IMG/VR virus record: IMGVR_UViG_3300029913_000003
Location: 128,001-192,000 of that record
DNA: 64,000 nucleotides
Source: a virus
Direction: 5' to 3' (one strand)
Positions 8,696 through 34,981 of the stretch are shown piece after piece. Made by a program: the position numbers and the translations under genes. Numbering within the stretch: the stretch's first letter is position 1; every line of letters begins with the position of its first letter. The notes below the pieces were generated by a model. The model did no database searches. It had not been told where the DNA came from and saw only the letters and a program-made list of their open reading frames with translations.

Positions 8696-10648
8696 TTAAA
8701 ATTCAAATTCTAATAAATCAATAAATTTTTTACCATTTTTAGTTTTAATATCATTTATTGTTATTTTTGATGATATAAGTTGACAGTAATATGTTAATGC
8801 ATTTTTTACATCAATTAAATTTGCACAAGGAGTTTTAATATCAGAAATAACAACATAATCTTCAATATATGATGCAAGAAAATTTGTTTCTACTTTTGAT
8901 TTTTTAGATAATACTAAATTTTTATCTTTATCTAAATATATTGTTATGATATTATTATTTAATTCTATATAACCTTCATTCGGTGTATTATGTACAATTT
9001 TTAATGAAAAATCATTTGTATGTGATGAATCATTTTGATCACTATATGATGAAGCTTGTTCTTTTATACCATTTTTAAAATTAAATTTATTTTTCTTAAT
9101 TACATGTTTACATGGAGGAACATTATATTTATTTTTTAAATATGAAAGATGAAGTTTGATGTGTTTTATTTCTGTATAAATTATAAAATTATAATTATGA
9201 TATCCACATGATCTACCTGCAAAACTTTGAACAATAAAACTTGTTCTATATGTAGAATCATTAACTGTAGTTCTATCAAATAACATTACAATATTTTCTT
9301 TCTCTAATTGATATGATTGCTTCATTTTCTCCTTAATAAATATTATGGTAGGAGCATCTGGTGCATTTTTTAATACATCATTAATAACTTCTTTATCTTT
9401 CTCATAATATGTCAAAGTTTTAAATCCATCAGGTATTAGATTATTTGTATTTGTATTTTTATTTATTCTAACAATATAATATCCTATTTTATTATTAAAG
9501 CTTTCTGCTTCATTTATAAAATGTTTTTCACCTTCTGTTGTTGATAAATCAAATGATTCTCTTAAAAAATTATTTTTTAAAAAATATTCTAAGCCTTTGT
9601 AATTAGGTCCGTGAGATAATTCAATAGTGTTCTTTCTTTTATATAAAATATTACCAACATGTTCTTCATACGGAGTTGCTGATATAGAAAATAAGAAAAT
9701 ATTTTTTTTTGATAAATCAGTTGAACCATTTAAATTTATACCATTTTTTTGAAGATAACTATTCATAGCACTATCAACATTTGATGCTAAATGAGCTTCA
9801 TCAATAAATATAATACAATTATTTAAATCACCTACTTTATTTTTTCTTGACCAACGAATTAAATCTGGATTATGCATAATACCATTCCTCTTTAATATTT
9901 TTTGATCATCTTGCCGACACTCTCCATGAGATATGTCAGTTTTTAATTGTTCTTTATTTGAATTATCACACATTGGAGTTATTAATACACTACTTCTAAA
10001 TTTCAAATTTAGATATTCTCTTAATTCTTGATAAGTTTCTAATAAATATATTATATTACGTACAACACCAGTTTTACCTGCTTGAGTTTCTGCAGTTAAC
10101 ATATTATACCTACTATGTTTTGAATTAAGTTTTGATGATAACATATTATATATGCAACTTAATGATGCAAAAATCTGATCATCAAATACGTGTGATTTAT
10201 CATTAATATTATCAGTTCTATTTAATTTTTCTAATTTGATGCCAGTTAGACGATATATTTCAGAAATCAATTTATTAATACGAAATTTTATACTATGAGC
10301 TAAATTAGTATTTGCTGGAATAGTTGTGGTGGTGGTAGTTGTTTTACTATTACTATTAGCAGATTTTATTAATTGGTGTTTTTTATTATATACAATATCT
10401 TTTAGATTTTCAATATCATATTTAGTACATTTATCATTTTTAATTCTAATATCTATTAATTTATTAATTGCAATAAGTGCTTTTTTTCGATTAGTATTCC
10501 ATTTCTTACTATATAAAGCATCAACTAATTGATCATTGCTATAACGACTAAAATCAAATTTTCTTACGTATGGTTTATTATTTTTAGTAAGTTGACCATT
10601 AATTAAATTTCTTTTAGCTTTAACACTAATAATGTTATTATTTACCAT
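8696..10648 (-). CDS. SF2 DEAH-box helicase downstream of cas3, possibly a CRISPR accessory
   Basis: Motif I TAETQAGKTGVV, motif II IIFIDEAH, motif III FSISAT, and a motif VI-like QSFAGRSCG. There is also a poly-Thr linker. Confidence 0.55.
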   Translation of the reverse strand: MVNNNIISVKAKRNLINGQLTKNNKPYVRKFDFSRYSNDQLVDALYSKKWNTNRKKALIAINKLIDIRIKNDKCTKYDIENLKDIVYNKKHQLIKSANSNSKTTTTTTTIPANTNLAHSIKFRINKLISEIYRLTGIKLEKLNRTDNINDKSHVFDDQIFASLSCIYNMLSSKLNSKHSRYNMLTAETQAGKTGVVRNIIYLLETYQELREYLNLKFRSSVLITPMCDNSNKEQLKTDISHGECRQDDQKILKRNGIMHNPDLIRWSRKNKVGDLNNCIIFIDEAHLASNVDSAMNSYLQKNGINLNGSTDLSKKNIFLFSISATPYEEHVGNILYKRKNTIELSHGPNYKGLEYFLKNNFLRESFDLSTTEGEKHFINEAESFNNKIGYYIVRINKNTNTNNLIPDGFKTLTYYEKDKEVINDVLKNAPDAPTIIFIKEKMKQSYQLEKENIVMLFDRTTVNDSTYRTSFIVQSFAGRSCGYHNYNFIIYTEIKHIKLHLSYLKNKYNVPPCKHVIKKNKFNFKNGIKEQASSYSDQNDSSHTNDFSLKIVHNTPNEGYIELNNNIITIYLDKDKNLVLSKKSKVETNFLASYIEDYVVISDIKTPCANLIDVKNALTYYCQLISSKITINDIKTKNGKKFIDLLEFEF

Positions 10649-10740: not shown

Positions 10741-13038
10741 TTATATTAAATTATCGTAAATATCATTTTTTACTAATCCTAATTTTTCACAATAAACTTT
10801 ATCAAATGCAATATATGGGGTTTCTTTTTTCCTGGCATAATCTTTAAGTATAGGTAAAGTATATTGATTATTTTTAAATAACGAATATTTATTATAAAAA
10901 AATCTATCATCCTTAATTTTTATAATATTCTTTATTATTCTCTTAATTTTACTATCTAAACCTGTTATTGGTTCAGATTTTTTAATATCTCGATTAAAAT
11001 CTACACTAAATGAGTCCGTCATTTGTCTTTTTTTTGCATATTTATATATACAATATATATCTCCTCCACTTCTTAATTTAGTATTATTATTTTTAATTGT
11101 ATTGTTTTTAGATTTCTCCATCATCTTATACGGTTCAATTTTACATAAATTTAATAAACTTGTTTTTAGTTTAGATGTGATAAACTTTTTTAAATTTTCA
11201 TTATTTTCATTATTAAACATATTATAATATTCATATAATTCATTTATTGAATATAAATTTCCGTTAATAATATGTTTTTTAATAAATGAAATCCATAATT
11301 TATTTAATTCTAAATCATATTGATTTGATATACTAGTGTTTTCTGAGTTTCTAAATTCACTTTTATTTTCATTAAAAAATAAATTTATTTTTGGAGTTTT
11401 ATTTTTTTTATAATAAAAATGTCCCCACCTATCACATCGACCTATTCTTTGTAAAGTAGTTTCTGGAGACATCACACTATCTGTTAAATTTAAAAATGAT
11501 ATATCCATAGATGCTTGTAAAATAGGTGCTGATATAATACTATCTTTATTCAAAATATTTTTATTTTCTTTGCCATATAAATGAATAATTTTATTCATTA
11601 TTTTTTCTTTATCAGAATCTATATATCTACTATGTATTAAAATATCGCCTTTTTTATAACAATATAATCTTTGAGAATTTGAAATAGAATTCATAATAAC
11701 AACTGAATCTTTTTCATTAGTTATTGTATCAATATCATCAATATAATTAATCAAATATTTACCATTATGTGCAGATGTATAATGAGAATTTTTATTTGGT
11801 AAAATTTTAGTTTTTTTATCTATATTTGTTCCATCCCATAAATATTCCATTATAGTTTGTGTAGCACTTAATAATAATGTGTGACTATTTGTTAACATAT
11901 GTCTAGATTTCATGATATTAATAAAACATGCAAATAGTGCATCATCTTTAATTAATTCATGATATTCATCAAAAATCACATCACAATAATTAATAACAAA
12001 TAATCTATTTCTAATAGAATTATTCACATTAGGAGATAAATAATTATCTATATTAGTTATTATAATATCAGATGTAAATTCTTTAGTGTTTTCATTATTT
12101 GTTTTCTGTCTATTACCTGTTAAATATAACTCAACTGATAATTCAACTGATATATTTTTTAATTCTTGTAAAACAGAATTATATACATTTTCAGCAATAA
12201 TATTTCTAGGGCATACCCATATTAATTTTTTATTAGATTTTAATGACCATAATAACCCCAATAATGTTTTACCAAAACCGGCTGGGGCTTTCATTATTGT
12301 AGTTCGATTATTTAATGATTGATTTGCGTAATCAACTTGAGAATCAAAACGAATAGAATCATAATTAATAGGTTTGCTATATACTTTAGTATCTTTATAT
12401 GATAAATTGTTTATTAATTCTTCACAATAATCATCATCATACAATATTTTTTCTTGATCTGATGCTGATACAAGTCTATCAGCAGTTATAACACAAGATC
12501 TTACTAATGAATTTTTAGAATTTGTTAAACTATTTGGTTCATTTAAATAATATAATGGAGTATTGATAGATTTTTCAAAATTTATATCTTCAAATAATAT
12601 ATTTTCATTCATTAAAAAATTATACATTGATAAAATATTTTTTTTATCATCATCACACATATCACTTAAAATTAATGATATATTATCATTACTTATATAA
12701 TTTATTTTTGGTTTAGAATGATGCCAATATATTGAATCTAAAGAATATCTATATTCATCATTATTTAAAATACATGACACAAATGCCCAACTTATTTCAT
12801 GATGAAATATTGGAGAATTAATAAAAGAAATTGTTTTACTTTTTGATTTTATATAATTTTGAAAATCTAAATTACATTTACCTAAATCATGCAATAAACA
12901 AGCTATTGAAATTTGTTTTTCAAGGTCTTCATTTAATGATAACTTTTTTGATAACATCATTCCTATTTTTTTAACTGCTTTTGAATGAGTTATTAATGAT
13001 ATTCCACTACTATTTGATACAATTTCTTCTAATTTCAT
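10741..13038 (-). CDS. cas3: Cas3 with an HD nuclease fused to an SF2 helicase
   Basis: HD motif LLHDLGK near the N-terminus, with further His-containing segments (FHHEISW, WHHSKP) and ITADRLVSASD. Walker A APAGFGKT, DExH VIFDEYHE, SAT LLSAT, and motif VI QRIGRCDR. It sits beside the CRISPR array. Confidence 0.8.
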   Translation of the reverse strand: MKLEEIVSNSSGISLITHSKAVKKIGMMLSKKLSLNEDLEKQISIACLLHDLGKCNLDFQNYIKSKSKTISFINSPIFHHEISWAFVSCILNNDEYRYSLDSIYWHHSKPKINYISNDNISLILSDMCDDDKKNILSMYNFLMNENILFEDINFEKSINTPLYYLNEPNSLTNSKNSLVRSCVITADRLVSASDQEKILYDDDYCEELINNLSYKDTKVYSKPINYDSIRFDSQVDYANQSLNNRTTIMKAPAGFGKTLLGLLWSLKSNKKLIWVCPRNIIAENVYNSVLQELKNISVELSVELYLTGNRQKTNNENTKEFTSDIIITNIDNYLSPNVNNSIRNRLFVINYCDVIFDEYHELIKDDALFACFINIMKSRHMLTNSHTLLLSATQTIMEYLWDGTNIDKKTKILPNKNSHYTSAHNGKYLINYIDDIDTITNEKDSVVIMNSISNSQRLYCYKKGDILIHSRYIDSDKEKIMNKIIHLYGKENKNILNKDSIISAPILQASMDISFLNLTDSVMSPETTLQRIGRCDRWGHFYYKKNKTPKINLFFNENKSEFRNSENTSISNQYDLELNKLWISFIKKHIINGNLYSINELYEYYNMFNNENNENLKKFITSKLKTSLLNLCKIEPYKMMEKSKNNTIKNNNTKLRSGGDIYCIYKYAKKRQMTDSFSVDFNRDIKKSEPITGLDSKIKRIIKNIIKIKDDRFFYNKYSLFKNNQYTLPILKDYARKKETPYIAFDKVYCEKLGLVKNDIYDNLI

Positions 13039-13157
13039 ATTTTTTATTTTAATTGTGAATAAAAATAATTTTTTAATTATTTATAATATAAATCATAAAT
13101 TTAATTACTGATTTATATAAATATAATAAACACATATTTAAATAGTGTCACTATTTT

Positions 13158-15565
13158 GTTGAGATTCCCTTACGGATTTATATAAATAATATCGAATTCG
13201 ACTTCTGTGCGACCTTGTTCGTCGTTGAGACTCCCTTACGGATTTATATAAATAATATCTTCACTTAATGTAATAAATTCTAAATCATGTTGAGACTCCC
13301 TTACGGATTTATATAAATAATATCTTATCATTTTTTTCAAAAATAGAAAGAGAAGTTGAGATTCCCTTACGGATTTATATAAATAATATCTTATCATTCA
13401 GAATTATTTTTTCTTCTTTAGTTGAGACTCCCTTACGGATTTATATAAATAATATCAACTATAGAAACAATAGAAAGAGATTTATTGTTGAGACTCCCTT
13501 ACAGATTTATATAAATAATATCAATATTTGTCATTTGTTTTTCTTCTATATATGTTGAGACTCCATTACGGATTTATATAAATAATATCTAAACTGTCAT
13601 CTAAATGATCATTTGATTTGTTGAGACTCCCTTACGGATTTATATAAATAATATCATTATCTGAATATGCTGCAAATCATAAACTGTTAAGACTCCTTTA
13701 CGGATTTATATAAATAATATCTGCATACAGAATTCACCGTTGTAATTCATTGTTGAGACTCCATTACGGATTTATATAAATAATATCTTTAACAAGTGTC
13801 TTCCCTCCTTTTCTATAGTTGAGATTCCCTTACGGATTTATATAAATAATATCTAAATACTCTGAATATTCAACTGGTAAGAAGTTGAGATTCCCTTACG
13901 GATTTATATAAATAATATCAAAATCATCTGTGAAAATTGGAGTTACACCGTTGAGACTCCCTTACGGATTTATATAAATAATATCAAATTATTTTATAAC
14001 TGAATATCAATCAATGTTGAGACTCCCTTACGGATTTATATAAATAATATCTGTTGTACCTAAAACTAAAACTGTTTCTCTGTTGAGACTCCCTTACGGA
14101 TTTATATAAATAATATCTAATTCTAATTCTAAATCTGTATAATCACCGTTGAGACTCCCTTACGGATTTATATAAATAATATCTTATTTGAAAATCTTTA
14201 CAAGAAAATCAGGGTTGAGACTCCCTTACGGATTTATATAAATAATATCTTACCAATTAAGAAAAAGAATTGATACCTTGTTAAGACTCCCTTACGGATT
14301 TATATAAATAATATCTTATTAATAGATGTGCTGGCACCACCTTCGTTGAGACTCCCTTACGGATTTATATAAATAATATCTTTTGTATTTGAAATAATAT
14401 CACTTCCTTTGTTGAGACTCCCTTACGGATTTATATAAATAATATCTTATATTACTATATTTATTAAATATGATAAGTTGAGACTCCCTTACGGATTTAT
14501 ATAAATAATATCTGAATCACTTTTTGTTTTACGTAGTAATTCGTTGAGACTCCCTTACGGATTTATATAAATAATATCATCAAGAACTTCGGTTGCCTTT
14601 AATTCATTGTTGAGACTCCCTTACGGATTTATATAAATAATATCCTATAACCTCCCTATTTTTTTCATCAACTGTTGAGACTCCCTTACGGATTTATATA
14701 AATAATATCATATAATCACTTCTTTTCCTGCTCTGCTTTGTTGAGACTCCCTTACGGATTTATATAAATAATATCATTGCACTAAAAATGTCATTAATAG
14801 GGTTCGTTGAGACTCCCTTACGGATTTATATAAATAATATCGCACTTTTCCCATTTTTTCTGGCTACACTTGTTGAGACTCCCTTACGGATTTATATAAA
14901 TAATATCATTTCTTCTTTGAATGATTTGTAGAAATATGTTGAGACTCCCTTACGGATTTATATAAATAATATCTAGCGTATTTGATTCTAATAAGCAATA
15001 TGTGTTGAGACTCCCTTACGGATTTATATAAATAATATCACCGATTAACTCTTTTCTTAATTGACTATAGTTGAGACTCCCTTACGGATTTATATAAATA
15101 ATATCTAGCGTATTTAATGTAAATAAGCAATATGTGTTGAGACTCCCTTACGGATTTATATAAATAATATCAAAAGCGAATTCAACATTGACTGACGCTC
15201 GTTGAGACTCCCTTACGGATTTATATAAATAATATCGACAAATTAAATACATATATATAACATATGTTGAGACTCCCTTACGGATTTATATAAATAATAT
15301 CTGATATAATTGAAAGTCAATCATTTTATTTGTTGAGACTCCCTTACGGATTTATATAAATAATATCCTGTTATGTTAGAATAAGTAATTGCACTATGTT
15401 GAGACTCCCTTACGGATTTATATAAATAATATCAAATCTATTTAAAGAGATTGAACAGCTAGAGTTGAGACTCCCTTACGGATTTATATAAATAATATCT
15501 AGCAGAACAGGATAGACATCAATTCATTGGTTGAGACTCCCTTACGGATTTATATAAATAATATC
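13158..15565 (-). CRISPR. CRISPR array with 37 copies of a 36-bp repeat and 36 spacers of 29-31 bp
   Basis: Repeat GTTGAGACTCCCTTACGGATTTATATAAATAATATC with a 66-bp period. A few variants occur, such as GATTCCC, CCATTACGG and GTTAAGACTCCTTTACGG. The strand is inferred from the flanking cas genes and from the variant terminal repeat lying at the 13158 end. Confidence 0.97.
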
Positions 15566-15666
15566 AGGATATTTATAATTAATTGATATTGAGTTATTTA
15601 TAGTATATATTAATAAATAAAAATGAGTTATTAATATACGTATATCATTATATTTATTCATTTTTA
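15566..15666 (-). promoter_or_regulatory. putative CRISPR leader
   Basis: AT-rich 101-bp gap between the cas6 stop and the consensus terminal repeat at 15530. The first repeat at 13158 is a variant, so the leader is placed at this end. Confidence 0.4.
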
Positions 15667-16371
15667 TCATACTAATTTATATTTATCTTTATTTTCTGTT
15701 TTATAAATTGTACCAAATCCAGAACCAGTTGATTGTCCTATACCTAAATTATAAATTTTTTCTGCCACATCAGATGAACAAAATATACTAATGTGACATT
15801 GATTAGCTTCATTTTTGACATTTTTAACCATTATTTTCTTTACTTTATGTGAAGGATGATTTATTATTTTAACATCAAAATCTTTTAAATTAATACCGTT
15901 ATAAATTTTACTCAATTTTTTTATAATATGGTTTTTTACAATATATACGAAATCAGAATCATTTAAAGTTGAATAAGTATATTTCTTTTTATTAATATGC
16001 TTTCTAATAATAAATGGAGATAATGTTGCGAAATGATTCCATCCATTTATAAATTTTTCAAAGATAAAATTAATTTTATTAAATTTCATTCCCCAATTTA
16101 AATCTTGATTAGACATCACTCCACTTATTAAATCATTCAAAAATTCTTCATTTTTTGAAGTTACTACAATAATTCCTCCATTCTTAAATGATAAATGTAA
16201 CTTATCTTCAGTTAGGTTTCCACCATATAAAGATGATATAGAGTAATCATTTTTAGAATCATGATATTTATTATTAACTCCAAGACATTTGTGTATATAA
16301 TAATTAATATATGATTGATTCTTAATCGGTACCAATGTTTTATTTTCTGTAAATTCAATTTTTATTCTCAT
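15667..16371 (-). CDS. cas6: Cas6 crRNA endoribonuclease
   Basis: N-terminus MRIKIEF and the C-terminal glycine-rich loop LGIGQSTGSGFGTIY typical of Cas6. It is immediately adjacent to the array. Confidence 0.65.
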   Translation of the reverse strand: MRIKIEFTENKTLVPIKNQSYINYYIHKCLGVNNKYHDSKNDYSISSLYGGNLTEDKLHLSFKNGGIIVVTSKNEEFLNDLISGVMSNQDLNWGMKFNKINFIFEKFINGWNHFATLSPFIIRKHINKKKYTYSTLNDSDFVYIVKNHIIKKLSKIYNGINLKDFDVKIINHPSHKVKKIMVKNVKNEANQCHISIFCSSDVAEKIYNLGIGQSTGSGFGTIYKTENKDKYKLV

Positions 16372-17254
16372 ATTCTTCTAATTTATTAATATTAATATAA
16401 CTATCTAAATCATTTTCAATCATTTCATCTTCATTTATCAAATCTTCTATCCAAACAAATCCTCCATCTAATAACGTTGCACAACCTTTTGAATTTTTAA
16501 TTTTGTCAACATATTCTGATGTTAAAGGAATTATTATAGAACCACTAATTTTTGTAATATTATCAATTCCTCTAATATTTGTTAATGTAGTTTTTGGATT
16601 TTGACCAATTGTTATTGCTGATTGATTTACAATACCAATAAGAAGATTTGCAATTGGAGTTTTATTATTTTTAACTAATTTTTTACAAAAAATTGTAAAA
16701 TCAGAATTATCATTATATTGTTTAATGAAATTTGCAAATTTTATTTTGCTATTATTTTTTATTTCATTATTAATATCTATAACTAATTTAGAACTACTAT
16801 AATATGTAATAATCTCTTTTATTATATACATTGCAGGTTTTGATTTAACATCATAACCTAATATATTATTAAATAAATTAATCATTTCTATAAATAGATC
16901 AGTAGTTAAATAACATTCTAGATTTTCCCAATAAATAAAACTTCTTTTTTTATCTCTATAGCTATCATAAGCAAATTTATTTGTTTGTATAAACTCATTC
17001 ATATAACACATTTTACCACTAGATTTATTTAAAAATCTTGTTGTATCTATTTTTATATAAGCTAAATTAGCTATATTAAATATATCTGATATAGGTTTAA
17101 TTAATGTATCTCTATATGTTGGACTTGGACGTTCACCCATTAAAACATGCAGCATGTTACTTATTTGATGAACACTTATACTAGGTTTTTGATTATTAGT
17201 TGCTTTTTCAAAAAATCCAGCATCTTTAAATGACAATTTTAAAAAATATTCCAT
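16355..17254 (-). CDS. putative Cascade subunit, Cas5- or Cas8-like; no family motif seen
   Basis: Sits between the Cas7-like and cas6 genes and overlaps cas6 by 17 nt. The call rests on position and size only. Confidence 0.3.
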   Translation of the reverse strand: MEYFLKLSFKDAGFFEKATNNQKPSISVHQISNMLHVLMGERPSPTYRDTLIKPISDIFNIANLAYIKIDTTRFLNKSSGKMCYMNEFIQTNKFAYDSYRDKKRSFIYWENLECYLTTDLFIEMINLFNNILGYDVKSKPAMYIIKEIITYYSSSKLVIDINNEIKNNSKIKFANFIKQYNDNSDFTIFCKKLVKNNKTPIANLLIGIVNQSAITIGQNPKTTLTNIRGIDNITKISGSIIIPLTSEYVDKIKNSKGCATLLDGGFVWIEDLINEDEMIENDLDSYININKLEEYENKN

Positions 17255-17264
17255 ATTATTAGAA

Positions 17265-18338
17265 TTATTTAGCTTCTTTTTGAGATTTTAATTTAGCTTC
17301 TTTTTTTTCTTTTTTATCATCTTTAGCTTTCAATTTAGCATCTATTCTTTTTTTAATTATAATAGATCTCTTATCTGACAATTCTATATCTAAAGTTTTT
17401 GCATTTTCAAAATCATATTCAGTATAAAAATTTTCATTTTCAAAATTTAAATTATCTATAACATCTTTTGTTAATTCAATCCATCCATCAGAATTATTTT
17501 TTTTATCATTAAATACGTCATATACTAATTTAATTTTAAGTTTAGACGTAACAACACTAGATCCAGATTTATAAATATTCATTTTTAGCATTTTATATAA
17601 TAGATTTTTTGTTAGTTCAACAACATCTGTATTGGATAATAAAAAACCATATTCTGGTAATTCAACAACACTATTTGTAATCCTATAATATTTTAATTCC
17701 GAATTAAATGATGGTAATCTTTTTTTCAATAATTCTGAATATAAAGGAAATAAATCTGGATTGAATGCTAATCGATCTAAATTTTTAGAACAACTAATAA
17801 ATTGCATTTGCATTAAATCAATATTACCATCAGTCTCATATGTTATATCTCCTACAGTTTCTTTGTTAAATAATGAAGTATCACTTATTTTTTCACCACT
17901 AACTGTCATAAGTTCTATTTTTGATTTACAATTATTTGTTTGTTCAGCGTCAATTATACATAAAACACTTTTTCTTCTAATTGTTTTATCAATCTCATCT
18001 TCATTCAATGCAAATAAATGACCTCTATTTATAATTGCAGGAGAAGCCAACATTGACACAAGTAAATAATTATTATGCAATATATTTGGAGATTGAAATG
18101 GAATATCATCAATAAAAATATTATGTCTTAAACAATTACTAGAAATTTTTATTTTATAATCATATTCACCATTACTTTTCTGATATATATTTTTTTTTGC
18201 AAATATTAAATTATTATCAGTTTCATACTTTCCACCACTAATTTCATTCCATATCCATTTTTGTCCATTACTATCACAGTTAACAACACCATTACCTTCT
18301 AATTCCATTTTAAATAAAATGTTCTTTACTTTTTTCAT
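17265..18338 (-). CDS. putative Cas7-like backbone subunit with a Lys-rich C-terminal tail
   Basis: N-terminus FKMELEGNGVVNCDSNG loosely resembles the N-terminal Asn/Gly-rich segment seen in Cas7-family proteins. Position in the operon fits. The tail KAKDDKKEKKEAKLKSQKEAK is atypical. Confidence 0.35.
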   Translation of the reverse strand: MKKVKNILFKMELEGNGVVNCDSNGQKWIWNEISGGKYETDNNLIFAKKNIYQKSNGEYDYKIKISSNCLRHNIFIDDIPFQSPNILHNNYLLVSMLASPAIINRGHLFALNEDEIDKTIRRKSVLCIIDAEQTNNCKSKIELMTVSGEKISDTSLFNKETVGDITYETDGNIDLMQMQFISCSKNLDRLAFNPDLFPLYSELLKKRLPSFNSELKYYRITNSVVELPEYGFLLSNTDVVELTKNLLYKMLKMNIYKSGSSVVTSKLKIKLVYDVFNDKKNNSDGWIELTKDVIDNLNFENENFYTEYDFENAKTLDIELSDKRSIIIKKRIDAKLKAKDDKKEKKEAKLKSQKEAK

Positions 18339-24026: not shown

Positions 24027-25661
24027 ATGATTCAAATAGACGACAAAAAAATATTTTTTCCTCTCAAATACGAACCAAAATCTTACCAAATTGATGGACT
24101 AAATTTTATTAAAAATAGTATATTGACAGGTAAACGTTTTATTTTAGAAAATTTGCCGACTGGGGTTGGTAAGTCATTCATGGTCATAATGCTAGCCAAT
24201 TGGTATAAAGGATTCGTGAATCCAGATGCCAAATTTGATATTCTTACAGCATCGAAGGTACTTCAAGGCCAGTATATCAGAGATTTTCCGTTCATAAATG
24301 ATTATAGAGGCAAATCTAACTATTATTGTAAAGATTTTGATTGTGATTGCGGTACAGCTAAAGAACTCTGTGCTATAATGAAAAAACATTGTGATCAATG
24401 TCCATATGACATTGCTAAAAATTCCTGGATATCTGGAGATATAGGTTTGAGTAATTTTCATCTATTTGATACATTATCATTATTTCAACCTGATATTTTA
24501 AAAAGAAGAGATGGTAATGTACTTATAATTGATGAGTGTCAATCATTCGAAGAAACCTTCTCATCCTATCTTTCCTCAAAATTAAGTTCAAAAACTTTAA
24601 AAAGATGTGGATTTGGATTAAAAGAAATTGAAGAGATTGATAGCAAATATATTTCAAAAATTAAATTTTTAGATAAATATTTAGAATTTTTAGAAAGAAA
24701 GTTAATACCAATGTTAGAGAAAAAAAGAACTCAATTTGAATCTGATATTGCTGGATCATCAAAATCAAAACAAAAAGTAGAGTTATCTAAATATTTACAA
24801 AATATTGATAGTAAACTATTATCGTTTAAACATTTATTTGATTCACATAAAAATGATCCAGATAATGTAGTTCTTGATATCAATAAAAATAAGAGTGAAA
24901 AAAATTATAGTGGGATAGAGTTGGTAACTGAACATATTTTCGTTTATGAGTACCTAAATCAATATGTATGGTCTAAATACGATCATATAATTTTTATGTC
25001 TGCTTCTGTACTCGATTCTAAAATGTTTAGTTTCATTAATGGATTAGATGAAGAATTAACAAGTTATCATGAAATGGATTCTCCTTTTGAATTAAAAAAT
25101 CATCCTATATTTTATATGAAACTTGGTAAAATGTCTTTTTATAGTAAAGAAGAGACTTTTAAGAATCAGATACCTTGGATAAAAAAAATATTAGCTAAAT
25201 ATAAAAACAAAAAAGGAATAATTCACACATCAAATTATGAAATAACAGAATGGTTAAAAGAAAATATTATGGATGAAAGGTTATTATTTCACACTACTGA
25301 AGATAGAAATGAAATTCTTGAAAAACATTTAACAAGTACAGCTCCAACAGTTTTAGTAAGTCCATCTATGATGGAAGGAATTTCTTTAGATGATGAATTA
25401 GCTCGTTTTCAAATAGTGTTAAAAATATCATTCGCAAATTTGGGTAGTAAAAAAATTAAAGCAAGACAAAAAATGATGCCTGAATGGTATAGCTGGAATG
25501 CATGTGTTCAAACAATACAAGAAGTAGGTAGAGGAATTCGTAGTGAAACAGATTACTGCGATACGTTTATATTAGACTCAAACTTTTCAGATTTATTAAA
25601 ATATAATTCTAATATATTACCTAAGCACTTTACAGATTCTATAAAAGTTTTAAAAACATAA
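24027..25661 (+). CDS. DinG/XPD(Rad3)-family SF2 helicase with an FeS-cluster cysteine motif
   Basis: Walker A LPTGVGKS, DExQ LIIDECQ, a four-Cys insert CKDFDCDCGTAKELCAIMKKHCDQC between motifs I and II, and motif VI QEVGRGIRSETDYCDTFILD. Confidence 0.65.
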   Translation: MIQIDDKKIFFPLKYEPKSYQIDGLNFIKNSILTGKRFILENLPTGVGKSFMVIMLANWYKGFVNPDAKFDILTASKVLQGQYIRDFPFINDYRGKSNYYCKDFDCDCGTAKELCAIMKKHCDQCPYDIAKNSWISGDIGLSNFHLFDTLSLFQPDILKRRDGNVLIIDECQSFEETFSSYLSSKLSSKTLKRCGFGLKEIEEIDSKYISKIKFLDKYLEFLERKLIPMLEKKRTQFESDIAGSSKSKQKVELSKYLQNIDSKLLSFKHLFDSHKNDPDNVVLDINKNKSEKNYSGIELVTEHIFVYEYLNQYVWSKYDHIIFMSASVLDSKMFSFINGLDEELTSYHEMDSPFELKNHPIFYMKLGKMSFYSKEETFKNQIPWIKKILAKYKNKKGIIHTSNYEITEWLKENIMDERLLFHTTEDRNEILEKHLTSTAPTVLVSPSMMEGISLDDELARFQIVLKISFANLGSKKIKARQKMMPEWYSWNACVQTIQEVGRGIRSETDYCDTFILDSNFSDLLKYNSNILPKHFTDSIKVLKT

Positions 25662-33790: not shown

Positions 33791-34981
33791 TTATTTAAAG
33801 AAGAAGAAATCACAACGTCTATTAATTCTATACATCATTTTTGGAGTATCAATTTTACCTAATCCATTTATGATAATATGATCCTCTGAAATTTTATATG
33901 TATTTACTAATTCATTTTTAACCATATTAACTCTATTCATGCTTAATTTATCATTATAAGGTACATTACCAATATAATCACAATATCCTCTTATTTCAAC
34001 ATTATAATCTGGATATTTTCTCATTATAAACGCAACATGTTTAATAATATTTAATGCAGTATTATCTAAATTATATTTATCGAAATCAAAATAAATACTT
34101 GGAATTTTATTAACAAATTCATCATTTATACCATTATTATTTGCATATGTAGTACTATCATTACAAGTTTTACACCCATTATAAATAGTATTTGTATTTG
34201 TATTATAATTATTAGTTATATTAACTGTTGTACCACAACAAGGTTTATCATAATCTGAATACTTTTCTAATTTTTTATTAATTTCTATAGATTTAGATTC
34301 TTTTGATTTAAATTTATAACGAGCATAGAGTGTAAATACATCAATATTATCATTAGAATTGCTATCATATCCACCACTACTATAATGTTTTACTCCTTCA
34401 GGTGTACTAAAAGCTAAAACTATACCTTCTAAATTATCTTTATTATTAGTTCTATAATGTATTTTTCCTCCTATACTTATATTATTATATAAACTATATT
34501 CAGCATAAAATGTAATAGGAATAGTGAATGCATTACCATAATCAGGAATTGCTTTAGATGTAACATCAGGCTTTATGATATTTTGATTAAATGTATAATT
34601 TGCATAACCAATTCCAATTGATCCATTAAAAGAAAATTTAGAATTTGACATTGGAAAAATCATTTTTGTAAAATTAATAGTGGCATTAAAATCACCTGTA
34701 TTATAATTAGTTTCAAATGATGCATAATGATTTTCACCTTTTAACGGTAAATGATAATAATTAACTGATAATCCCCAAATTGGAGTGAGAGTATACTCAA
34801 TAAGACCTCCAACTGTTATTTGTCTTACTGATCCAGGAAAAATACTTGTGATATCTTGAGTTACATCACCATCGAAATAATTTACTCCAATTTCACCTAC
34901 AATTGAAAATTTATGATTATCATTTTCTGAAAATATAGAAAAAGAAATCATCAAAAAAATAAATAATAATAGTTTTTTCAT
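33791..34981 (-). CDS. OmpA-family outer-membrane protein with a signal peptide, a beta-barrel-like N-domain and an OmpA-like C-domain
   Basis: Signal MKKLLLFIFLMISFSIFS. Alternating beta-strand-like N-terminal domain. C-terminal VEIRGYCDYIGNVPYNDKLSMNRVNMVKNELV...INGLGK matches the OmpA/MotB peptidoglycan-binding signature. Confidence 0.5.
   Translation of the reverse strand: MKKLLLFIFLMISFSIFSENDNHKFSIVGEIGVNYFDGDVTQDITSIFPGSVRQITVGGLIEYTLTPIWGLSVNYYHLPLKGENHYASFETNYNTGDFNATINFTKMIFPMSNSKFSFNGSIGIGYANYTFNQNIIKPDVTSKAIPDYGNAFTIPITFYAEYSLYNNISIGGKIHYRTNNKDNLEGIVLAFSTPEGVKHYSSGGYDSNSNDNIDVFTLYARYKFKSKESKSIEINKKLEKYSDYDKPCCGTTVNITNNYNTNTNTIYNGCKTCNDSTTYANNNGINDEFVNKIPSIYFDFDKYNLDNTALNIIKHVAFIMRKYPDYNVEIRGYCDYIGNVPYNDKLSMNRVNMVKNELVNTYKISEDHIIINGLGKIDTPKMMYRINRRCDFFFFK

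What the first reader, a model, noticed from the sequence alone, without database searches (positions are those of the whole stretch)
13158..15565. Array architecture, orientation, GC-rich spacers and a near-duplicate spacer pair
The repeat is 36 bp, GTTGAGACTCCCTTACGGATTTATATAAATAATATC, and spacers are 29-31 bp. The repeat contains a perfect 12-nt AT-only palindrome (ATTTATATAAAT) instead of a GC stem. On the minus strand it ends ...GTCTCAAC, which resembles the AUUGAAAC-type 8-nt handles of Cas6-processed repeats. The distal repeat at 13158 is degenerate (GATTCCC) while the repeat at 15530 next to cas6 is consensus. This supports minus-strand transcription from a leader at 15566-15666. Several spacers are much more GC-rich than this window, for example gaattcgacttctgtgcgaccttgttcgtc at about 50% GC against a window near 22%. 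That implies the targets belong to a different, less AT-rich replicon. Two spacers at about 14974 and 15106 (tagcgtatttgattctaataagcaatatgt and tagcgtatttaatgtaaataagcaatatgt) differ at only four central positions, as if two alleles of one protospacer were captured.
Basis: seen in the sequence. Interest (0 to 1): 0.7.

Follow-up and report, generated by a model that had tools for sequence, protein, structure and literature searches.

The report
CRISPR array of a huge phage

Summary
There are 37 copies of a 36-nt repeat and 36 spacers of 29-31 nt at 13158-15565, plus a decayed 38th repeat at 13093-13128. The array lies between cas6 and cas3 of a minimal cas7fv-cas5fv-cas6 + cas3 locus on the minus strand. 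The 64-kb window has no cas1, cas2 or cas4. Its gene content, and 33 related loci on IMG/VR viral contigs of up to 0.6 Mb, point to a huge phage.

Minus-strand transcription from the cas6-side leader is well supported. All nine variant repeats are in the cas6-distal half, and 14 related arrays have the same polarity. Their repeats end ...GGAAUCACAAC, grading to ...AUUGAAA in distant relatives.

The AT palindrome is not conserved. What is conserved is a 3-bp core hairpin (UCC-GUAAG-GGA) with one covarying pair, ending exactly 8 nt before the repeat end.

Spacers are only modestly GC-richer than the window (26.3% against 21.9%, p about 0.002). The same offset occurs across the family, so it is weak evidence for a compositionally different target.

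The near-duplicate spacer pair is real and unique among 308 family spacers. No protospacer was found in any collection. This is a variant of a known kind, of moderate interest.

The parts
13158..15565 (-). CRISPR array: 37 repeats of 36 nt and 36 spacers of 29-31 nt. On the transcribed (minus) strand the repeat is GATATTATTTATATAAATCCGTAAGGGAGTCTCAAC.
   Evidence: Identical array in ENA contig L001.
13093..13128 (-). Decayed terminal (trailer-end) repeat, in register 65 nt before the repeat at 13158. It is followed by a 29-nt relic spacer at 13129-13157.
   Evidence: family D2; 23/36 identity in this register only.
15566..15666 (-). Leader, 101 nt, between the cas6 stop codon and the first repeat. 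It contains a 10-nt inverted repeat, ATAAAAATGA / TCATTTTTAT, at 15658-15667 and 15617-15626.
   Evidence: relatives have leaders of 92-107 nt with the same A-run...ATG / CAT...T-run motif just after cas6. Polarity.
15667..16371 (-). cas6 (234 aa), of the Cas6/Cas6b type rather than Cas6f. It has the glycine-rich loop GIGQSTGSGFG.
   Evidence: Pfam Cas_Cas6_C, 4.8e-12. (PADLOC Cas6b, 6.5e-36). (Pyrococcus Cas6 structures, 2e-4 to 2e-3).
16355..17254 (-). cas5fv-like gene (299 aa).
17265..18338 (-). cas7fv-like gene (357 aa).
   Evidence: PADLOC Cas7fv, 4.4e-13. (PDB 5o6u_C Cas7fv, 1e-7). (precomputed Pfam PF28157, Cas7fv-like).
10741..13038 (-). cas3 (765 aa): HD nuclease plus DExH helicase, with no Cas2 domain. 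It lies downstream of the array's trailer end.
   Evidence: HD, Cas3_HD, DEAD, Cas3-like_C_2. (Cas3fv, 6.5e-66, matching only from profile position 320). Motifs LLHDLGK, APAGFGKT and FDEYH read.
14974..15003 (-). Spacer 28 (numbering on the + strand), the older member of the near-duplicate pair.
15106..15135 (-). Spacer 30, the newer (leader-proximal) member of the near-duplicate pair. It has four differences from spacer 28.
13194..13223 (-). Oldest intact spacer, 50% GC, the only strongly GC-rich one.

Best explanation
The array is the guide-RNA store of a minimal type I-F2-like CRISPR-Cas system carried by a huge, about 22% GC bacteriophage. The system consists of Cas7fv-like, Cas5fv-like, a Cas6 of the Cas6/Cas6b type, and a stand-alone HD-helicase Cas3.

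Shown:
- the array architecture;
- the cas gene identities;
- the same-strand cas6-leader-array layout in the window and 14 relatives;
- the decay of repeats away from cas6;
- a conserved short hairpin in the repeat.

Inferred:
- The array is transcribed on the minus strand from the 101-nt leader at 15566-15666.
- Cas6 binds the small hairpin (UCC-GUAAG-GGA, repeat positions 18-28 on the minus strand) and cuts at its 3' base.
- Each crRNA would then be about 66 nt: an 8-nt 5' handle GUCUCAAC, a 30-nt guide and a 28-nt 3' handle.
- Cas5 caps the 5' handle and Cas7 subunits line the guide. Cas3 is recruited to degrade matching DNA, as in the Shewanella I-Fv system.
- The targets are most likely DNA met inside the same host cells, such as competing phages, other mobile elements or the host itself. 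Spacer composition follows carrier composition with a small GC excess.
- New spacers must come from adaptation proteins supplied in trans or encoded elsewhere in the phage genome, because the window has no cas1, cas2 or cas4.
For: Architecture.

cas genes.

Phage carrier:
- UvsW-type helicase.
- Acb3 anti-CBASS, thymidylate synthase, M15 peptidase and D12 methylase.
- 33 related loci on IMG/VR viral contigs of up to 597 kb.
- The same proteins on contigs of 0.2-1 Mb.

Orientation:
- Variant repeats occur only in the cas6-distal half, with a decayed terminal repeat beyond them.
- Every related array lies just downstream of cas6 on the same strand, with degenerate copies at the far end.
- L033 and L035 share older spacers in order, but each has three unique spacers at the cas6 end.
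- The leader motif next to cas6 is conserved.

Processing signal:
- The minimum-energy fold of the minus-strand repeat is the 3-bp stem followed by exactly 8 nt.
- In 14 distinct family repeats, pair 18-28 is invariant U-A. Pair 19-27 is C-G in 10, A-U in 2, U-A in 1 and U-G in 1. Pair 20-26 is C-G in 11 and U-G in 3.
- 87% of cells are paired, against 11-63% when the partner is slid by 1-3 columns.
- The 3' tail grades from CUCAAC and CACAAC to UUGAAA in distant relatives.

No adaptation genes: and the precomputed Pfam annotation of flanks.

No self-targeting.
Against: - No RNA data exist, so transcription, the cleavage site and the handle length are all inferred.
- The hairpin is very weak (-2.7 kcal/mol) and no better than shuffled sequences (z = 0.23).
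- Covariation rests on a single pair in 4 of 14 sequences.
- If Cas6 cut at the base of the extended 5-bp stem seen in relatives, the handle would be 6 nt rather than 8.
- No sigma-70-like promoter was found on the minus strand of the leader, and the TTCTTTGACAT motif of many related leaders is absent here.
- No protospacer was found, so neither target class nor PAM is known.
- Only 64 kb of a genome of at least 346 kb was inspected, so cas1 and cas2 could lie elsewhere.
Confidence: 0.78

Rival explanations
1. The array is an inherited relic. With no adaptation genes the phage cannot add spacers, the guides no longer match anything, and the locus is decaying.
For: No cas1, cas2 or cas4 in the window. 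No protospacer in any collection searched. The array is identical in the one other contig that could be read.
Against: The 19 leader-proximal repeats are identical. All four cas ORFs are intact, with the catalytic motifs present. The array is long for a phage: 37 repeats against a reported median of six (PMC7162821). A related adaptation-less locus shows different leader-end spacers in two samples.
Confidence: 0.12
2. The spacers mainly target the bacterial host chromosome, for host takeover or gene repression, rather than rival phages. This would explain the GC excess.
For: Spacer GC exceeds carrier GC in 18 of 19 arrays, and hosts are often somewhat GC-richer than their phages (general knowledge). 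Host-targeting spacers are reported in huge phages (PMC7162821). A 22-nt exact match of spacer 1 lies in a Phycisphaerales MAG.
Against: That match extends to only 24/30. Its flanks match at chance level (2/8). About 0.07 such hits are expected by chance in 596 Gb, and the MAG is very GC-rich, so it is an implausible host for a 22% GC phage. There are no other genome hits. Most spacers are as AT-rich as the phage itself.
Confidence: 0.2
3. The near-duplicate spacers arose inside the array by duplication of a repeat-spacer unit followed by mutation, not by two acquisitions.
For: The two spacers are only two units apart.
Against: The spacer between them is unrelated, and no neighbouring unit is duplicated. 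All repeats in this part of the array are identical. The four differences are packed into 6 nt, with 24 nt unchanged. That pattern fits variation in a target better than random drift.
Confidence: 0.07
4. The array is transcribed on the plus strand: the repeat is GTTGAGAC...AATATC and the leader is on the 13158 side.
For: Many CRISPR repeats begin GTTG (general knowledge). A promoter-like site lies on the + strand at 13014-13043.
Against: The 13158 side carries the decayed repeats and abuts the cas3 start codon. All relatives show the opposite polarity. The conserved hairpin-plus-tail sits at the 3' end only in the minus-strand reading.
Confidence: 0.04
5. The carrier is not a phage but a plasmid or a reduced cellular genome.
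For: No capsid or terminase gene was identified in the window. Huge plasmid-like elements with similar gene sets exist (PMC7162821).
Against: The window has Acb3, a UvsW-type helicase, an M15 peptidase, phrog_29329, and HNH and GIY-YIG endonucleases. Relatives are IMG/VR viral genomes. No ribosomal or core cellular genes were seen.
Confidence: 0.08

Closest known systems
Type I-F2 (I-Fv) CRISPR-Cas of Shewanella putrefaciens CN-32 (PMC4937334; PDB 5O6U; PMC12956352)
   Same: A Cas7fv-like backbone and a Cas5fv-like cap, with no large (Cas8) or small (Cas11) subunit gene. The gene order is cas7-cas5-cas6-array, and an HD-helicase Cas3 is the nuclease.
   Different: - Cas6 is of the Cas6/Cas6b (PF01881) type, not Cas6f.
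- Cas3 has no Cas2 fusion.
- There is no cas1.
- Repeats are 36 nt and spacers 30 nt, against 28 and 32.
- The repeat hairpin has a 3-bp core rather than a stable G:C stem.
- The carrier is a phage, not a bacterial chromosome.
CRISPR-Cas systems of huge phages (Al-Shayeb et al. 2020, PMC7162821)
   Same: Encoded on a very large phage genome, with no Cas1, Cas2 or Cas4. That work proposes a role against competing phages or the host.
   Different: The array is much longer (37 repeats against a median of six). The type I variant described there is I-C-like, lacks Cas6 and has a different helicase. This one is I-F2-like, with Cas6 and a bona fide Cas3.
Vibrio phage ICP1 type I-F system (PMC10161043)
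   Same: A phage-borne type I-F-related interference complex with Cas3-dependent DNA degradation.
   Different: ICP1 keeps Cas1, Cas2/3, Cas8f (Csy1) and Cas6f, with 28-nt repeats. None of these applies here.
Cas6/Cas6b-processed repeats of type I-B and III systems, with the 8-nt 5' handle AUUGAAAC/G (from my own knowledge, not tested here)
   Same: The Cas6 family, repeats of 36-37 nt with little structure, and a related 3'-terminal octamer. Distant relatives of this Cas7fv family end AUUGAAA.
   Different: The octamer here is GUCUCAAC (AUCACAAC in close relatives), and the effector proteins are I-F2-like, not I-B.

Membership tests
CRISPR array | Regularly spaced, near-identical direct repeats separated by unique spacers of constant length | tested here: met
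   37 repeats, spacing of 65-67 nt, and 36 distinct spacers.
CRISPR array | Adjacent cas genes, including a crRNA-processing enzyme | tested here: met
   cas6 lies 101 nt from the first repeat. cas7, cas5 and cas3 flank the array.
CRISPR array | Transcription and processing into crRNAs | not testable with these tools
   There are no RNA data. Orientation and the cleavage site are inferred.
Type I CRISPR-Cas | Cas3 with an HD nuclease and an SF2 helicase | tested here: met
   Pfam HD, Cas3_HD, DEAD and Cas3-like_C_2. PADLOC Cas3fv at 6.5e-66.
Type I-F2 (I-Fv) | Cas7fv backbone subunit | tested here: met
   PADLOC Cas7fv at 4.4e-13. 5o6u_C at 1e-7. PF28157.
Type I-F2 (I-Fv) | Cas5fv subunit replacing the large subunit | tested here: met
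   [not shown]
Type I-F2 (I-Fv) | No cas8 or cas11 gene in the operon | tested here: met
   Only cas7, cas5 and cas6 lie between the upstream paralogue block and the array. The upstream small genes are SH3-like, not Cas11-like.
Type I-F2 (I-Fv) | Cas6f (Csy4-type) endoribonuclease | tested here: not met
   Best matches are Cas6b and generic Cas6 and Pyrococcus Cas6 structures. There is no Cas6f hit.
Type I-F2 (I-Fv) | Cas2-Cas3 fusion and Cas1 (adaptation module) | tested here: not met
   Cas3 is 765 aa and matches the Cas3fv profile only from position 320. There is no Cas1, Cas2 or Cas4 among the 69 other ORFs of the window. The rest of the genome was not seen.
Type I-F2 (I-Fv) | 28-nt repeat with a stable hairpin and 32-nt spacers | tested here: not met
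   The repeat is 36 nt, spacers are 30 nt and the stem has a 3-bp core. GC-rich distant relatives L038, L041 and L043 do have 28-nt repeats.
Phage-encoded, adaptation-less CRISPR-Cas (huge phages) | Located on a phage genome | tested here: met
   Phage-type genes in the window. 33 related loci on IMG/VR viral contigs. No structural genes were seen in the window itself.
Phage-encoded, adaptation-less CRISPR-Cas (huge phages) | Spacers matching other phages or the host | tested here: inconclusive
   No credible protospacer was found in GenBank phages, PLSDB, IMG/VR, JGI metagenomes or GTDB genomes. The collection scans allow exact matches only, and only six spacers could be scanned.

The most novel reading that the evidence does not exclude
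A whole clade of huge phages carries I-F2-like interference modules without any adaptation genes. Yet their arrays are long (up to 37 repeats) and differ at the leader end between samples: L033 and L035 each have three unique leader-proximal spacers. The 36-nt repeat was not found in 185,579 reference genomes. These phages may therefore acquire spacers by an unrecognised route. One possibility is a phage-encoded integrase unrelated to Cas1. Another is promiscuous use of a host Cas1-Cas2 with a different repeat. The near-duplicate spacer pair would then be repeated sampling of one variable locus of a rival.
Probability: 0.12. Interest if true: 0.7.

Novelty: new variant of a known kind. Interest (0 to 1): 0.38.

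Why it matters
Phage-borne CRISPR systems show viruses using adaptive-immunity hardware against rivals or hosts. This locus belongs to a sizeable family: 161 Cas7fv-like proteins with no functional name from any source (where a source names them at all it is "hypothetical protein"), and 33 viral loci. The family combines the most compact type I effector known (I-F2) with a different Cas6 and a different repeat format, and it has no adaptation module.

This locus gives a concrete, testable crRNA model: an 8-nt GUCUCAAC handle, a 30-nt guide and a 28-nt 3' handle. That could be useful for reconstituting a compact Cascade. It also raises the question of how arrays grow without Cas1-Cas2. For the finding as written, the practical value is mainly corrective. 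The orientation is right, the palindrome idea is wrong, and the GC argument is weak.

Tried and rejected
1. Self-targeting. No spacer matches the window with fewer than 5 mismatches. The one 25/30 match is spacer 3 against 34917-34946, in the N-terminus of an OmpA-family ORF. It beat 100 of 100 shuffles, but neither an exact scan nor a search for orthologues produced a protospacer.

2. Protospacer searches, all negative:
- the whole array against GenBank phages (best E 0.8) and PLSDB plasmids (best E 0.06);
- exact scans of IMG/VR for the near-duplicate pattern and for spacers 1, 18, 3 and 36;
- a scan of JGI metagenomes for the near-duplicate pattern.

3. The GTDB scan with the 22-nt core of spacer 1 gave one hit, in a Phycisphaerales MAG. 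I rejected it as chance: 24/30 overall, flanks matching 2/8, and about 0.07 hits expected.

4. The repeat itself is absent from IMG/VR, JGI contigs and GTDB genomes, so no host array with the same repeat was found. It has no Rfam CRISPR-DR match.

5. Cross-targeting. 308 spacers from 20 related arrays, searched against all fetched loci and the window, gave no match longer than 18 nt.

6. Strand bias of spacers. Purine content in the crRNA sense was 20 above and 12 below 50%, p = 0.2, which is not significant.

7. Promoter scan of the leader. There is no minus-strand sigma-70-like site, and overall fewer sites than in shuffled sequence.

8. The AT palindrome as a structural element. I rejected it because it is not in the minimum-energy fold and not conserved.

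9. The 16 upstream small genes as a Cas11-like small subunit. I rejected this because the model is an SH3/Tudor-like barrel plus a helix.
Full report
**1. What is in the sequence**

A fuzzy search with the proposed consensus finds 37 copies between 13158 and 15565 and none elsewhere on either strand. The 36 intervening spacers are 29-31 nt long, 30 of them exactly 30 nt (independent repeat finder). The window is 22.1% GC.

Nine repeats carry one or two substitutions. All nine are among the 18 repeats nearest 13158, and the 19 nearest 15565 are identical. Beyond 13158, in register 65 nt upstream, lies a decayed copy at 13093-13128. It has 23/36 identity and its TTACnGATTTATATAAAT core is nearly intact. 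The array therefore really ends about 55 nt from the cas3 start codon.

ATTTATATAAAT is a perfect palindrome. The rest of the window contains 55 such 12-nt palindromes, and 2.2% of its 36-nt windows hold one.

Spacers 28 and 30 (14974 and 15106) differ at four positions: 11, 14, 15 and 16.

**2. Surroundings**

All cas genes are on the minus strand.
- 17265-18338 is Cas7fv-like: PADLOC 4.4e-13, PDB 5o6u_C 'Cas7fv' 1e-7 and Pfam PF28157.
- 15667-16371 is a Cas6 of the generic/Cas6b type, not Cas6f.
- 10741-13038, on the other side of the array, is an HD-plus-helicase Cas3 without a Cas2 domain.

None of the 69 other ORFs of the window hits Cas1, Cas2 or Cas4.

**3. The carrier**

The window encodes several phage-type proteins:
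- a UvsW-type helicase;
- an Acb3 anti-CBASS protein, thymidylate synthase, an M15 peptidase and a D12 methylase;
- an HNH endonuclease and a phage-only family, phrog_29329.

The exact Cas6 protein occurs on 20 metagenome contigs, some of 0.2-1 Mb. One of them, L001, is the same sequence as the window: 1 mismatch in 20.7 kb and the same 36 spacers.

The Cas7 has 161 homologues, none carrying a functional name from any source. Several lie on contigs of 300-711 kb. A pattern scan of IMG/VR recovered 33 related loci on viral contigs of up to 597 kb. This is therefore a clade of huge phages. Megablast and tblastn against GenBank phages found nothing.

**4. Orientation**

In every related locus with an array, the array starts about 90-110 nt after cas6 on the cas strand and its degenerate copies are at the far end. 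This holds for L006, L008, L010, L014, L021, L022, L023, L026, L029, L031, L033, L037 and L039, among others.

L033 and L035 are two samples of one lineage. They share 11 spacers in the same order, but each has three different spacers at the cas6 end. They also differ in some internal blocks. The L033 locus likewise lacks Cas1, Cas2 and Cas4.

Leaders share an A-run...ATG / CAT...T-run inverted repeat just after the cas6 stop codon. In the window its arms are at 15658-15667 and 15617-15626.

It may therefore be the ancestral state rather than decay. Either way the polarity argument stands. Minus-strand transcription from 15566-15666 is well supported, although no sigma-70-like promoter is detectable there.

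**5. Repeat anatomy**

On the minus strand the repeat is GAUAUUAUUUAUAUAAAUCCGUAAGGGAGUCUCAAC. Its minimum-energy fold is a 3-bp stem (U18-A28, C19-G27, C20-G26) with a 5-nt loop, followed by exactly 8 nt. The fold is weak and no better than shuffles.

Across 14 distinct family repeats, aligned without gaps:
- Pair 18-28 is always U-A.
- Pair 19-27 is C-G in 10, A-U in 2, U-A in 1 and U-G in 1.
- Pair 20-26 is C-G in 11 and U-G in 3.
- Pair 17-29 is unpaired in 8 of 14.
- 87% of cells pair, against 11-63% when partners are slid by 1-3 columns.

The tail is CACAAC in 13 repeats and CUCAAC here. In GC-rich distant relatives the repeat ends ...GGGAAUUGAAA or ...GAGUUGAAAG.

The 12-nt AT palindrome is not conserved. 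The longest palindrome in the relatives is 0-8 nt. It is also not part of the predicted fold.

The likeliest processing model is Cas6 cleavage at the 3' base of the 3-bp core stem. This would give an 8-nt 5' handle, a 30-nt guide and a 28-nt 3' handle. It is an inference: a 6-nt handle, from a cut at the base of the extended 5-bp stem, cannot be excluded.

**6. Spacer composition**

Spacers average 26.3% GC, against 21.9% (sd 8.5 points) for 30-mers of the window. Resampling and Mann-Whitney tests both give p about 0.002.
- Ten spacers have at least 10 G+C, where 12.7% of 30-mers are expected to (p = 0.012).
- Four have at least 12 (p = 0.035).
- One has 15 (p = 0.076).

The excess is real but small, and only spacer 1 is strongly GC-rich. 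The same offset appears in 18 of 19 related arrays: mean +4.6 points, Wilcoxon p = 2e-4. Spacer GC correlates with carrier GC at r = 0.91.

Targets thus resemble the carriers in composition, as expected for elements sharing a host. A family-wide acquisition or retention bias is an equally good explanation of the offset.

There is no coding-strand bias.

**7. Targets**

- No self-match.
- No credible hit in GenBank phages or PLSDB.
- No exact hit for six spacer patterns in IMG/VR, or for the near-duplicate pattern in JGI metagenomes.
- One 22-nt hit of spacer 1 in a GC-rich Phycisphaerales MAG does not extend beyond chance and is numerically unremarkable.
- No cross-targeting among the fetched relatives.

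Targets and PAM therefore remain unknown.

**8. The near-duplicate pair**

Among 308 spacers from 20 arrays, this is the only within-array pair closer than 7 mismatches. The unit between the two spacers is unrelated and the surrounding repeats are identical. The four differences fall within 6 nt, at guide positions 15-20 in the crRNA sense. That is outside the usual seed, so they do not look like typical escape mutations; this point rests on general knowledge of type I seeds.

In one reading frame the two versions differ by one amino acid plus one synonymous change, by my own translation of the sequence. The best readings are two acquisitions from two alleles of one locus, or from two paralogues in one genome. 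These phages are rich in tandem paralogues. In-array duplication is unlikely.

**9. Comparison and verdict**

The effector is I-F2-like: Cas7fv and Cas5fv, with no Cas8 or Cas11 (PMC4937334, PMC12956352). It fails four defining features of that subtype: Cas6f, the Cas2-3 fusion, Cas1 and the 28/32-nt array format. It fits the known category of adaptation-less CRISPR-Cas on huge phages (PMC7162821), but with an unusually long array.

I rate it a new variant of a known kind. Interest is moderate.

Noticed in passing
[not shown]
   Followed up: partly
window 24027-25661 (+): A DinG/XPD-like helicase (Helicase_C_2, DEAD_2) lies about 1.7 kb beyond the paralogue block. Two ORFs of the window hit the PADLOC type IV-A DinG model, the best at 5.8e-52, and this ORF is presumably one of them. 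A 544-aa helicase with the same Pfam hit (Helicase_C_2) sits at the corresponding position in L006.
   Followed up: partly
window 8696-10648 (minus strand): A 650-aa ORF lies just downstream of cas3. It has Walker-A-like (AGKTG) and DEAH-like (FIDEAH) motifs but no Pfam, PHROG or PADLOC hit. A 654-aa ORF occupies the same position after cas3 in L006.
   Followed up: no
window, ORF not localised: One of the 69 non-cas ORFs matches the CBASS inhibitor Acb3 (Pfam, 3e-46), a phage anti-defence protein.
   Followed up: no
window 13325-13354 versus 34917-34946: Spacer 3 matches the N-terminal coding region of the phage's own OmpA-family ORF at 25/30. This is better than 100 of 100 shuffles and hints that it was taken from the orthologue in a related phage. 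No exact protospacer or close orthologue was found in IMG/VR.
   Followed up: partly
L033 8726-10450 and L035 (IMG/VR): Two samples of one phage lineage have mosaic arrays. Eleven spacers are shared in order, three are unique at the leader end of each, and several internal blocks are unique. L033 and L031 also carry leader-like inserts with a TTCTTTGACAT/TTCTTTGAAAT motif in mid-array, suggesting tandem sub-arrays with their own promoters.
   Followed up: partly
L010 9437-9802: A related phage has a second, six-repeat array with the same repeat between cas3 and cas7, in addition to the array after cas6.
   Followed up: no
L008 versus L009: The same locus has 10 repeats in an NCBI assembly (GCA_040384425.1) but only the two oldest, degenerate repeats in a Logan assembly. 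This is either real spacer loss or gain, or assembly collapse across identical repeats.
   Followed up: no
window 13123-13151 (minus strand): The best minus-strand promoter-like site of the region (GTGACA, 17 nt, TATTAT; 10/12) lies inside the relic spacer and decayed repeat. It is about 85 nt upstream of the cas3 start codon and could drive cas3 independently of the array.
   Followed up: no
L038 8668-9486; L040 8038-8556: Distant, GC-richer members of the Cas7fv-like family pair the effector with other modules. L038 has a Cas1 and 28-nt repeats. L040 has a Cas6e-type protein and a 32-nt repeat with a strong stem. The Cas6/repeat module therefore appears to have been exchanged within the family.
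   Followed up: partly
L033 2203-2943: A DEDDh (DnaQ-like) exonuclease matching a PADLOC 'CRISPR-associated' model (8.7e-11) lies about 3 kb upstream of cas7 in an adaptation-less relative.
   Followed up: no
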